DNA from: Pocillopora damicornis
Taxonomy: Eukaryota
Direction of reading: 5' to 3'
Length of the DNA stretch: 64,000 nucleotides
Assembly (NCBI RefSeq): GCF_003704095.1
Contig: NW_020846475.1
Coordinates: 186,001 to 250,000, forward strand
Made by a program: the position numbers and the translations under genes. The notes below the pieces were generated by a model. That model did no database searches and was not told the DNA's origin. It saw nothing but the letters and a program-made list of their open reading frames with translations. This document shows, in pieces, positions 24,289-27,474 of the stretch (the stretch's first letter is position 1; each line of letters opens with the position of its first letter).

Positions 24289-27200
24289 ATGAAGTGGGTG
24301 ACAGCGCTTGTAGATCTTTCACTCCTTTTCCTGTTATCACAAATAGTTAACACAAAAGGTAGGTTCAAAAAACTTTTTACAGTTTATTTTTAGGCTTTTT
24401 GTGCGCGTGAAGTAAAAACTTTTGGCTACAAGGATTAGGTTAGTTTGAACTCATCAATCAAAAATTAATTTCGAGGTGAATCGAATCATGAAAGTAACTT
24501 TTTAGCAAACCACGTCGGTGATGGAAACGAGGAGAGGCAAAGCAAATGATAAAATGGGCAGAACAATAGCGCAGCACGTTCTTTTGAGTCGTTGTTCACT
24601 TCTTAGCCGTCCTCTGCAAATCACCAAATATTTTGAATTTAAAATATATAAGTTTCCATTTGGAATTCAACACTGCTCCCATAAGTTATGCTGAATTCGA
24701 AATTGAGGTGTGGCGCCGTCAGAGACGGTAAACACATTCAGTCATTCCCGAAATTATATCTAAAAAATATAAATTCATTTTGAATCGACGTCTCCCTCGG
24801 CGTTGCCGCCCTCACCGCTGAAGGGAGTTTATATTGTCTTGAAAGGTCTTAATAGGTTGTTGGCTCTCACGGTTAAAGGTTGAAATTTGGGCCATTTTAC
24901 GGCAAACAGTTAATTTCTTTCCGTTGTGATTGAAAGGAACATTTTTAACAATTAACTTTTTTCACGACTTACGGTGAAAATTTACCAATTTTTACGGCTA
25001 ACGGGTAATTTTTCTTTCCTTTTTTTTGCGGTTAACAGCTAAACAGATAATCATTGTCTCGTTGAGTGTTAAATTATTGCTCATATGAGTATTGATAGGC
25101 AGGCTTAAAATCAAAAGCCGTATAGTTTTCAAATATCTCATATTTAATCCTTTGGGCTTTAACCGTTTATTTGAACCGTTGTTATGATAGTTTGCGCGTG
25201 AATTTGTTTGTTTTCGCGAGCGCCTTTGCGCGCGCTGTAAAGATTGCGCATATTAGGCTTAATCAAAACTGTAAAAAAATTGTGGAACATGATTGGTTAT
25301 CAACAGCCCGATTTGAGCACTACTAGGACAGTGTACGCATCATGCTTGTAATTGGATAGCGTAACAAGACAGGTAAAGGGACAGTTAACACGTCATGCCT
25401 GTGCAAGTGGACAGAACGCGTCATGTGCGGGCGTTATTGCCTCCCATTTCTCCGATTTTACTGTTTTTTTTTAATAAAAACGTTCAACCGATATCTAGTT
25501 TCTTTTTAAAATTTTGTCATAATTTTGATTAATTGGTAACAGGACTTCGTGTCGTCCAATTCTGTCTGTAATCATACTCATAATTAACAAATCGGACTCC
25601 TGCTTCGTTAATTAATCGCTCGTACGATTACAGACCAAATTGTACTCCACTCGGTCCTATTACTTATATTAATCGGTTCAAAAAAGACGAATTGCATCAA
25701 AATGCTATCATTTTTTCACCTGACTGTTTGTCGCAAAATAAATTAAAGTACTACTTATAATTAATTTTTTTCAATCGACCCACTGACCTACAGTAATTAT
25801 CAAAACAACGACAGCGTAACTCCTACGTCTTTAAAGACTAAACCATATATGGCATGTCTGGAGCCATCTGGTGGATCCTACAACCCTACATTGCCGCTAT
25901 ATCATTTACTAATTTACGTCATTTACTAAGAGAACGATGAACCGAACAATCAAAAAGGAGTGCTTTATAAGATCGAGGGCTCAGCTGCCAAGCCTTTTAC
26001 GTCGGAGCTGACTGAACGCAAACGAGTGACAAGAAATATTGACTTTCACAGTCATATTGCTGAACATCATCGACTTACTTAGTTCTGGAACTCTTGGCAA
26101 TGCTTAGCCTACCGCTTCAACTACAATCAATGACTGACGATGGAAAGCTGGTTCTCTAACTTAGAGCACACAGTCTTTTAACAGATGTTAGTGACCACCG
26201 ATTCCGTCAAGAAACGACGTCTTTACGACGTTTACACGACAAACGAATCGAACGGAACAGAACTGACCAGAAACGACCGACTTAAGCAACCATAGTCTTA
26301 CGGCTAATACCATCACAGCAAAACCGACCAATCAGTTTACACGAATCAGACTTCTAACAAGTGAATTACAATAGCTCTTCACTCAGCTTTGATAATAACT
26401 TCCTTTAAGGTTATGATCAATCAGGTTGTGACCAATCAAACTGACCAATTAGTTTACACTTATCGGACTTATAGCACCCGACTGATAATAGGTCTTCACC
26501 CAGCTCTGATAATAACTTCCGTTAAGGTTGTGACCAATCAAACTGACCAACCAATTTACACTAATCGGAATTATAACACCTGACTGACAATAGCTCTGAA
26601 CACAACTTTGATAATAACTTCCGTTAAGGCTGTGGCCAATCAAACTGACCAATCAGTTTACACTAATCGGACTTATAACACCCGATTGATAATAACTCTT
26701 TACTCAGCTCCGATGATACCTTGCGTTCAGGTTGTCGAACGTCCATCAATACGACACAGTCTTCAGTACCTTTCTCATCCGCATGATGAGATCACAGAAT
26801 TAATTACTAAACATATTTAGTTCGGCTATAGAAAATCGGTTTCTCGATCTTTGTTTCAAGAGCACACAGTTGATGATCGTATCTTATTTACTTACTGGTG
26901 TTATAGTAGATGGAAACGTACTTTAACTCGTGCTATCGTTAAAATTGAACCACTAGTTTATTCATTTCAAATAACCCTTTCACCCTGTTTTTCGGTTTTC
27001 TATTTCCATCTTCAGAACACTTGAGAGCCATACAAGGACGATTTCTTCCCTTGACATGCCTAAATATTTTATACAACTTATGTGCTGGACTCGTTGTAAA
27101 TGCGGCACTCATCACTTTTTACTGGTTGACAAAATATATCACGTATCTAGTGGTGAATTTCTTCGCGAAAAAATGGTAAGTTACGGAGTAAATTTGAATG

Positions 27201-27474
27201 AACGTACTAAACTGATACCACTGATCTCTCGCAAGAATCGCCGGAAACCCTTAAACCCCACATTCAGACCAGCGAATTAAGTTTTGTAAGTTAAAAGTTG
27301 ACTTTTTGGCTTTACTCTTTTCATAGCACTCCTAATTATTTCCCCTTCCTTTTAATTGTATCCAGGCAGGAGTTTCAAGACAGGAAGGCTGCTGCTAATT
27401 TGCCTCCTAAACCCCAGAAACCGATATGGCAGCCAAAACATAGGAAAAAAAAGAAAAATAACATGACATGGTAG
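24289..27474 (+). CDS. Putative small membrane protein (112 aa, 3 exons): signal-like N-terminus, hydrophobic segment, basic tail
   Basis: Exons 24289-24358, 27016-27175 and 27366-27474 with canonical sites (AAAG|gtaggt, ttcag|, TG|gtaagt, tccag|); both junctions in phase; 339 nt total. Confidence 0.6.
25860..26800 (+). mobile_element. Decayed Penelope-like retroelement 3' end (GIY-YIG region) plus tandem 3' repeats
   Basis: Broken translation ILQPY..LRHLL..DEPNNQKGVLYKI..LTERKRVTRN..HIAEHHRLT..W.S.QCL.Y..NYNQ*LTMESWFSNLE, followed by about four ~102-bp tandem units. Confidence 0.75.
26323..26745 (+). repeat. Tandem repeat, ~102-bp unit, about 4 copies
   Basis: Unit consensus accaatcagtttacactaatcggacttataacacc..ctctgataataacttccgttaaggttgtgaccaatcaaactg. 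Confidence 0.9.

What the first reader, a model, noticed from the sequence alone, without database searches (positions are those of the whole stretch)
24289..27474. Hidden three-exon membrane microprotein gene inside the GPCR cluster
Seen: three exons absent from the ORF track in this frame splice in phase to MKWVTALVDLSLLFLLSQIVNTKEHLRAIQGRFLPLTCLNILYNLCAGLVVNAALITFYWLTKYITYLVVNFFAKKWQEFQDRKAAANLPPKPQKPIWQPKHRKKKKNNMTW (112 aa). This gives a signal-like N-terminus, a long hydrophobic segment and a Pro/Lys-rich tail. I recognise no family. Established: small TM accessory proteins (MRAP, RAMP, RTP) control trafficking of some GPCRs. Inference, speculative: it could be an accessory partner of the neighbouring receptors; only position supports this.
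Basis: partly seen in the sequence, partly recalled or inferred. Interest (0 to 1): 0.7.

Follow-up and report, generated by a model that had tools for sequence, protein, structure and literature searches.

The report
Shortened copy of coral membrane gene
This is a real, spliced coral gene for a 112-residue protein, a shortened copy of an unnamed coral gene family that lacks the family's large middle part, and it likely works as a small membrane anchor for the family's conserved tail rather than as a helper of the receptors next door.

Summary
The three-exon gene is real. One RNA contig bridges both joints in 4 of 8 runs laid, from four studies, and an identical protein is on record. It is not an orphan. 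It belongs to an unnamed family seen in Pocillopora, Stylophora and Oculina, with about a dozen copies in this genome. Long members have six coding exons: signal peptide, a small beta domain, a tryptophan-rich 11-residue amphipathic repeat, a membrane helix and a Pro/Lys tail. This copy lacks the three middle exons. That block starts and ends in phase 1, so the frame survives, and no remnant is found. It keeps the family promoter motif, and its branch has dN/dS 0.24 (below 1, p=1e-4). The GPCR-accessory idea is unsupported: no MRAP, RAMP or RTP similarity, and GPCRs are no commoner beside family members (7 of 46 tiles) than in controls (7 of 40). Most likely it is an ectodomain-less membrane anchor that presents the family's tail; this step is inferred. 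Interest is modest.

The parts
24169..24203 (+). Promoter motif shared with the family: CGCGC, CGTCA, 11-base spacer, TGTGACGT (two CRE-like half sites; the name CRE is recalled)
   Evidence: Aligns at about -110 and -90 in this gene and 7 of 7 paralogue upstream regions long enough to show it (C469a reads CGTCG); loose form in 1 of 40 control tiles
24194..24288 (+). 5' untranslated region as far as RNA contigs reach; holds a 4-codon upstream frame at 24244
   Evidence: X2 contig begins at 24194, X10 at 24246, X6 at 24249; contigs cannot fix a start; upstream ATG
24289..24358 (+). Coding exon 1: predicted signal peptide, 23 codons plus 1 base (phase 1); 3 codons shorter than in three long paralogues
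   Evidence: family exon-1 profile scores 17.9 bits against at most 1.7 on shuffles
24359..27015 (+). Intron 1, where long paralogues have three more exons; no remnant of them
   Evidence: tblastn and per-exon profiles read through stops
26008..26761 (+). Decayed 3' end of a dispersed retroelement with a GIY-YIG-like frame (Penelope-like; label recalled), with its terminal 102-base unit in about 3 tandem copies
   Evidence: 48 matches at 66-78% identity in the genome; GIY-YIG E=6e-4, under the Pfam cut-off, on another copy
27016..27175 (+). Coding exon 2: short stub plus predicted membrane helix; same length (160 bases) and phases as exon 5 of the near paralogues
27176..27365 (+). Intron 2 (190 bases, GT..AG, phase 2, same position as in paralogues)
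   Evidence: joint in 6 of 8 runs
27366..27474 (+). Coding exon 3: amphipathic helix end, PPKPQKP proline motif, polybasic run, terminal Trp, stop
   Evidence: best conserved part, 64-67% identical to Stylophora tails
27475..28000 (+). 3' untranslated region (X2 contig ends at 28000; an X1 contig runs past 28500)
   Evidence: ATTAAA at 27585 and 27949, AATAAA at 28028 and 28050
19777..20874 (-). Upstream neighbour, rhodopsin-family GPCR (context only)
   Evidence: PF00001
30753..31820 (+). Downstream neighbour, rhodopsin-family GPCR (context only)
   Evidence: PF00001; covered by one contig in X2

Best explanation
This is a transcribed, spliced copy of a six-exon coral gene family that lacks the three middle exons, likely lost after duplication, and its product is predicted to be a small single-pass membrane protein that would hold the family's conserved proline- and lysine-rich tail at the inner face of a membrane without the family's outer domain. 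Shown: the gene, the family, the matching exon phases, the absence of the middle exons, the kept promoter motif, dN/dS below 1 on its branch. Inferred: loss rather than gain; cleavage of the signal peptide, leaving a stub of about 20 residues outside; membrane crossing within residues about 43-73; a cytosolic tail (12 K/R against 2 D/E) that binds acidic lipid through the basic run and a proline-motif reader (SH3-type; recalled consensus PxxPxK) through PPKPQK. Having the tail but no ectodomain, it would engage the same inner partner as the long paralogues without their outer input, as a constitutive adaptor or a competing decoy, probably expressed under the same bZIP-type promoter control. 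Odds: real gene 0.97; truncated paralogue by exon-block loss 0.85; constrained as a short protein 0.75; this working mode about 0.45.
For: RNA joints in four studies. Homology: phmmer of 1.84 billion representatives gave 11 hits at E<=0.001, the best long ones at 43-48% identity over residues 23-112, named as Stylophora and Oculina uncharacterised proteins; hhalign to the family profile 99.4% over 83 columns. Exon-1 donors are phase 1 in 8 of 8 paralogue copies located and exon-5 acceptors phase 1 in 7 of 7 shown (read from sequence), so the middle block can drop out in frame. Profiles of the three missing exons score at shuffle level on intron 1, the window and 30 kb of flank, while the exon-4 profile finds decayed copies elsewhere at 48-63 bits. 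The distant subfamily and Oculina keep the ectodomain, so loss is the simpler reading. Branch dN/dS 0.24 (dN 0.35, dS 1.47; p=1.2e-4 against 1; 110 codons). Promoter motif kept despite that dS. In a neutral simulation with assumed indel rates the frame survives 0.1 substitutions per site in 0.4% of runs. The two coding variants listed in the read tables are both synonymous and no coding indel is listed, against indels in the 3' UTR. AlphaFold: one helix 34-87, pLDDT 85-92 over residues 41-80, disordered tail. Charges follow positive-inside.
Against: No partner, location or protein product is shown. dN/dS cannot date the exon loss: the constraint may have built up while the gene was still long, and the value does not differ from the background 0.41 (p=0.22). 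By exon, only the signal exon is below 1 at p<0.05 (0.03; tail 0.07; membrane exon 0.12). The membrane segment is weaker than in five long paralogues (best 19-residue hydropathy 1.82 against 1.96-2.68) and carries three Asn and a Lys. Asp9 interrupts the signal core. The Trp that is invariant in the long-form alignment (W293) is Cys here. P0003 differs by 3 amino acids. The coding-versus-UTR contrast in X6 is p=0.012 at best and 0.46 at worst, depending on unlisted sites. The tree leaves the gene in an unresolved fork (86/85) on a long branch. No short orthologue outside this genus was found. The function of the long forms is itself unknown.
Confidence: 0.45

Rival explanations
1. The protein does not span the membrane once but lies in it as a hairpin or surface helix, for example on ER or lipid bodies, aimed by its basic tail. 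It would continue a lipid-surface role of the long forms, whose 11-residue repeats work like those of perilipins and apolipoproteins (resemblance recalled).
For: A 40-residue, only moderately hydrophobic stretch (34-73) and a signal core broken by Asp9. Long forms have hydrophobic periodicity peaking at 96-100 degrees in 5 of 6 (second peak in P0055) and up to about 20 tandem 11-mers.
Against: The repeats are exactly what this gene lacks. No central Pro or Gly turn; the model gives one unbroken helix 34-87. In long forms the repeats follow a signal peptide and carry N-glycosylation sequons, so they would face the lumen, unlike perilipins. No sequence match to those families.
Confidence: 0.17
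2. A transcribed relic: the exon loss was recent, the gene is still read from its inherited promoter, and the protein does nothing.
For: dN/dS cannot date the loss; loss of the invariant Trp; weaker membrane segment; 3 amino-acid differences in P0003; other decayed copies exist (C469 second copy, C2024); a probably unproductive isoform through the retroelement appears in X1.
Against: No trace of the lost exons, while decayed copies elsewhere are easily found. The change in exon 1 is a whole number of codons. Frame, splice sites and promoter motif are intact on a branch with dS near 1.5. The frame is whole in contigs of differently labelled organisms.
Confidence: 0.15
3. A secreted cationic amphipathic protein or peptide precursor (antimicrobial-like): the signal is cut, the weak middle helix is not retained, and the basic product acts on microbial or vesicle membranes.
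For: Signal-like start, marginal hydrophobicity, tail with 12 K/R against 2 D/E, several dibasic sites (sequence).
Against: The middle helix is homologous, exon for exon, to a clear membrane anchor. The tail is most conserved with paralogues in which it is predicted cytosolic, which argues for the same environment. No family match.
Confidence: 0.1
4. An accessory protein of the neighbouring GPCRs, working like MRAP, RAMP or RTP.
For: It lies inside a tandem cluster of rhodopsin-family GPCRs; it is small and probably single-pass; one neighbour is covered in the same RNA run X2.
Against: No GPCR enrichment near family members, 7 of 46 tiles against 7 of 40. The GPCR subfamily has many clusters on contigs without a family copy. 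The promoter motif is the family's and occurs once in the window. No sequence match to accessory families. RAMP anatomy not met.
Confidence: 0.05

Closest known systems
Unnamed coral family: Stylophora LOC111337428, LOC111333923, LOC111327384; Pocillopora LOC113686554, LOC131771037 and kin; Oculina LOC144656972 (all 'uncharacterized')
   Same: Signal exon, membrane exon and tail exon, their phases, the promoter motif; 43-47% identity over the last 88 residues to the near subfamily.
   Different: Lacks about 255 residues or more (beta domain, Cys pair, sequons, Trp-rich 11-mers); weaker membrane helix; invariant Trp lost; 112 residues against 340-422 for the full-length models.
Truncated-paralogue regulators ('microProteins', decoy receptors; concept recalled, no paper read)
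   Same: Short paralogue that keeps one module of a larger protein and could compete with it.
   Different: Here the kept modules are the anchor and inner tail, not a shown dimerisation or ligand domain; competition is untested.
MRAP / RAMP / RTP GPCR accessory proteins
   Same: Small, probably single-pass.
   Different: No sequence match. RAMPs have a 90-100 residue three-helix ectodomain and a nine-residue tail (PMC9832379, passages); this has about 20 and about 39. The only invertebrate RAMP-like proteins in the passages seen are from amphioxus.
11-mer amphipathic lipid-surface proteins (perilipins, exchangeable apolipoproteins, synucleins; recalled)
   Same: Long paralogues have 11-residue repeats with periodicity near 98 degrees.
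   Different: No sequence or fold match; repeats are Trp-rich, follow a signal peptide and precede a membrane anchor; absent from this gene.
Coral 'dark genes' (PMC13044578; abstract and Discussion read)
   Same: Lineage-limited family of unknown function, grown by duplication, with membrane segments and poor AlphaFold models.
   Different: No 'light' parent family was found here. Whether this family is among their orthogroups is unknown: the supplement could not be read.

Membership tests
Unnamed coral SP / Trp 11-mer / TM / basic-tail family | Homologous membrane exon and tail exon | tested here: met
   phmmer E 5e-18; hhalign 99.4%; tblastn
Unnamed coral SP / Trp 11-mer / TM / basic-tail family | Homologous signal exon with phase-1 donor and shared promoter motif | tested here: met
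Unnamed coral SP / Trp 11-mer / TM / basic-tail family | Ectodomain exons (beta domain, Cys pair, 11-mer repeats) | tested here: not met
   absent from the mRNA contigs and from the DNA; hence filed as a truncated paralogue, not a full member
Unnamed coral SP / Trp 11-mer / TM / basic-tail family | Invariant Trp before the membrane helix (W293 of P0049) | tested here: not met
   Cys at this column
RAMP | Ectodomain of 90-100 residues, three-helix bundle; nine-residue tail (PMC9832379) | tested here: not met
   about 20 residues before the helix, about 39 after
MRAP / RAMP / RTP | Match to the family's sequence profile or solved members | tested here: not met
   0 Pfam families at E<=10 for P0003; 0 PDB sequences at E<=10 for P0016; that these libraries hold the three families is recalled
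MRAP | No signal peptide, YEYY activation motif (both recalled) | tested here: not met
   signal-like exon 1 shared with the family; no such motif in the sequence
MRAP | Antiparallel dual topology | not testable with these tools
   needs topology mapping in cells
MRAP / RAMP / RTP | Binds a GPCR and alters its trafficking or pharmacology | not tested
   no GPCR complex was modelled; needs co-expression assays
MRAP / RAMP / RTP | Shared fold | tested here: inconclusive
   two-helix model, pTM 0.34; a fold search on it cannot exclude a family
Truncated-paralogue regulator (microProtein / decoy) | Short paralogue of a larger protein that keeps a subset of its modules | tested here: met
Truncated-paralogue regulator (microProtein / decoy) | Competes with or binds the long form | not testable with these tools
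   needs pull-down or co-expression
Perilipin / apolipoprotein-type 11-mer proteins (long paralogues only) | 11-residue amphipathic repeats near 98 degrees | tested here: met
   met by the long forms, not by this gene
Perilipin / apolipoprotein-type 11-mer proteins (long paralogues only) | Sequence homology to those families | tested here: not met
   24 members scanned against Pfam, best E 0.08 to unrelated models; PDB sequences best E 0.42

The most novel reading that the evidence does not exclude
The long paralogues are a new, coral-limited class of membrane-anchored proteins that coat lipid surfaces or vesicles in the secretory lumen with Trp-rich 11-mer helices of adjustable length (for instance in handling lipid from the symbiont), and this gene is their built-in brake: a microprotein born by in-frame loss of the whole ectodomain, switched on by the same promoter motif, that occupies the tail-binding machinery.
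Probability: 0.12. Interest if true: 0.7.

Novelty: new variant of a known kind. Interest (0 to 1): 0.35.

Why it matters
It corrects a wrong gene model and places a supposed orphan in an undescribed coral family whose outer domain ranges from none to about 20 eleven-residue repeats. It is a clean case of a microprotein made by dropping a phase-symmetric block of exons while keeping promoter, signal, anchor and tail. The pair of short and long forms is a ready-made deletion experiment for a 'dark' family of reef-building corals. It does not open a new route to cnidarian GPCR accessory proteins.

Tried and rejected
1. Decayed repeat exon in intron 1: the stop-riddled frame at 25.9-26.8 kb looked like one, but it is a dispersed retroelement end. 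2. Selenocysteine read-through in the C469 paralogue: the in-frame TGA lies upstream of the acceptor used by homologous models. 3. GPCR linkage: looked raised by eye (4 of 9 regions) and vanished against control tiles taken beside retroelement copies, which are not a random sample. 4. Complex prediction of the short protein (20-112) with a long paralogue (240-368): no answer, score 0.00, alignments not used; no evidence either way. No GPCR complex was modelled. 5. Fold of the long form: mean pLDDT 39; Foldseek no match at E<=0.001; VIA best Z 6.1 on plain long helices. Short model: no Foldseek match. The beta domain was not folded alone. 6. ESM Atlas: no usable hit for either form. 7. Pfam, NCBIfam, PDB sequences: nothing. 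8. Metagenome contigs: alignment query not usable; single protein gave 178 pattern hits, 0 confirmed. 9. Rfam on 23-29 kb: no hammerhead; one sub-threshold histone stem-loop. 10. Promoter patterns: the first found nothing; the second had spacers 12-15 and so misses this gene's own 11-base spacer; it gave 45 matches against 80 for the reversed control, so the motif is rare, not enriched. The motif was derived from the family, so its presence there is partly circular. 11. The upstream GPCR had no cover in X2 and X15; contigs cannot show absence. 12. Literature: 12 gene and protein ids, 0 papers; concept searches gave nothing on this family. Earlier findings of this scan: none. Supplements of PMC13044578 (too large) and PMC8162421 (closed) were not seen; they may hold cell-type or stress expression of the Stylophora members.

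Full report
1. Observation. Of 22 runs listed, 8 were laid, all as contigs. One contig bridges both joints in X6, X10, X2 and X15, from four studies. X1 and X5 show the second joint only; X11 and X13 show unspliced pieces only. The X2 contig runs from 24194 to 28000. Logan protein P0016 equals the spliced product. The window also encodes, letter for letter, NCBI model pdam_00003979 (P0004), so the organism is most likely Pocillopora damicornis. That model starts inside exon 2 in another frame and uses another acceptor; the RNA joints do not support it.

2. It has a family. A DNA search of the genome found exon 3 twice on contig C469. One copy has a matching exon 1, membrane exon and tail exon, with more exons between. 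phmmer of P0003 against 1.84 billion representatives gave 11 hits at E<=0.001; the named ones are uncharacterised proteins of Stylophora and Oculina. A family profile added 31 clusters among 7995 candidates scored; the named ones are from Pocillopora and Stylophora, the rest unnamed ENA or Logan records. No record named from another coral genus or from anemones appeared, but these searches are limited. In this genome a long member gives 35 matches on 9 contigs, about a dozen copies, some decayed and some cut by gaps.

3. Anatomy of the long form. Six coding exons, read from sequence against RefSeq models: signal peptide; two exons predicted as a small beta domain (strands within 30-99, low confidence); a large exon with a Cys pair, N-glycosylation sequons and a Trp-rich amphipathic helix with periodicity at 96-100 degrees; a membrane exon; a tail exon. 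The helix varies in length. The C469 genomic exon holds about 20 tandem 11-mers and is 176 residues (16 x 11) longer between two anchors than the RefSeq model of that locus; other members differ by 4 or 11 residues in several cases. No Pfam, NCBIfam, PDB-sequence, Atlas or fold match was found.

4. How the short gene arose. Exon-1 donors are phase 1 in 8 of 8 copies located, and membrane-exon acceptors phase 1 in 7 of 7 shown, so the three middle exons can drop out in frame. Profiles of those exons, read through stops, score no better than shuffles on intron 1, the window and 30 kb of flank; the exon-4 profile finds two decayed paralogues at 48 and 63 bits, though the exon-2 and exon-3 profiles found nothing in those stretches either. 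Part of the intron is an old retroelement end. The distant subfamily and Oculina have the ectodomain, so loss is simpler than gain (inference). In a tree of 12 membrane-plus-tail rows the gene joins the near pocilloporid group in an unresolved fork (86/85) on a branch of 0.7 (midpoint root; C429, C2024, the second C469 and second C4242 copies were left out; the C1939 row mixes two copies).

5. Is it under selection? A codon model of my own on 110 codons of 4 sequences gives dN/dS 0.24 on its branch (dN 0.35, dS 1.47), below 1 (p=1.2e-4) and not different from the background 0.41 (p=0.22). This cannot date the exon loss. Other signs point to long life as a short gene: no remnant exons, a whole-codon shortening of exon 1, an intact frame despite change at a Trp invariant in the long-form alignment, and a neutral simulation in which the frame survives 0.1 substitutions per site in 0.4% of 4000 runs (indel rate assumed). 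The upstream motif CGTCA..TGTGACGT is kept at the family's position; a loose form occurs in 1 of 40 control tiles. Between organisms, the two coding variants listed are synonymous and no coding indel is listed, but table 3 was cut, some differences are unlisted, and P0003 has 3 amino-acid changes; the coding-versus-UTR contrast is p=0.012 to 0.46.

6. The GPCR idea. The neighbours are rhodopsin-family GPCRs. GPCR frames lie in 7 of 46 tiles around other family copies and 7 of 40 control tiles (p=0.78), so coral DNA is simply rich in them. None near a paralogue scores like this cluster. RAMPs have a 90-100 residue three-helix ectodomain and a nine-residue tail (PMC9832379, passages only), which this protein lacks; no profile or solved-sequence match exists. 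Co-expression by cell type and binding were not tested. I give the idea 0.05.

7. How it most likely works. Shown: it keeps signal, anchor and tail and lacks the ectodomain; the tail is its most conserved part. Predicted: one helix 34-87 with a hydrophobic core near 43-73 and a disordered tail; 12 K/R against 2 D/E after the helix, so tail inside. Inferred: the basic run binds acidic lipid and PPKPQK binds a proline-motif reader (SH3-type consensus recalled), the same partner that the long forms use. Without an ectodomain it would act as a constitutive adaptor or a decoy, under the same promoter control. Against: the helix is less hydrophobic than in five long forms (1.82 against 1.96-2.68) and Asp9 breaks the signal core, which leaves room for a hairpin (0.17), a secreted cationic product (0.10) or a relic (0.15). 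I put the adaptor or decoy reading at 0.45.

8. Comparison and novelty. The long members are on record only as uncharacterised; 12 of their ids and the local model's gave 0 papers, and concept searches found no account of the family. Papers seen: PMC9832379, passages; PMC13044578, abstract and Discussion, supplement unreadable; PMC8162421, search listing only, supplements closed. The unseen supplements may hold expression data for the family. The paper on coral dark genes describes lineage-limited families grown by duplication, many with membrane segments; this fits that kind. Truncated paralogues are a known way to make small regulators (recalled). The verdict is a new variant of a known kind: a real, mis-annotated microprotein gene from an undescribed coral family, not a GPCR helper on present evidence. 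Interest 0.35.

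Noticed in passing
L006:2508-3629 (-) = G000:C469:116507-117628: Paralogue exon with about 20 tandem Trp-rich 11-residue repeats; 16 units more than the RefSeq model of the locus (XP_027059991), so the model may wrongly splice out repeats, or an in-exon intron or length allele exists.
   Followed up: partly
window 25933-27175: In run X1 exon 1 joins an acceptor at 25933 (25 letters on the short side) and a contig covers 26310-27174 unbroken into exon 2: a probably unproductive isoform through the retroelement, with a stop two codons into the new exon.
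   Followed up: partly
window 26321-26735: About 3 tandem copies of a 102-base unit matching the retroelement's terminal region; Rfam found no hammerhead there.
   Followed up: partly
window 24244-24258: Four-codon upstream frame in the 5' UTR, in frame with the main ATG and closed by TGA; two RNA contigs begin just after it.
   Followed up: no
window 19777-53603: Tandem cluster of about 9 single-exon rhodopsin-family GPCR genes; those near 44.6-45.7, 50.0-50.5 and 52.6-53.6 kb are in pieces.
   Followed up: partly
window 46095-46900 and 54707-59743 (-): DEAD-box helicase exons (PF00270, PF13959); its last exon is duplicated at 46.6-46.9 kb together with a GPCR, suggesting a local segmental duplication or a collapsed haplotype.
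   Followed up: no
L043:4369-5682 (-), about 4.3 kb before the window: Single-frame Headcase-family gene (PF16002, PF15353).
   Followed up: no
window 23109-23155 (-): Weak match to the histone 3' stem-loop (23.9 bits, under the cut-off of 34); probably chance.
   Followed up: no
window 29453-29671 and 21463-21527: Tandem repeats of 76 bases (2.8 copies) and 32 bases (2 perfect copies).
   Followed up: no
L034, L035 (C4242), L036 (C4004), L037 (C1390): A distant subfamily (about 25% identity, 420-422 residues, Stylophora member LOC111327384) shares exon phases and, in the three copies whose exon 1 was located, the promoter motif.
   Followed up: partly
L039 (G000:C1939:163000-172999): Several partial family copies in both orientations among assembly gaps; P. 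verrucosa has several near-identical annotated copies, so this is probably a young tandem array.
   Followed up: no
window 23454-23495, 24500-24920, 25290-25627: Short dispersed repeats that draw many unrelated RNA contigs.
   Followed up: no
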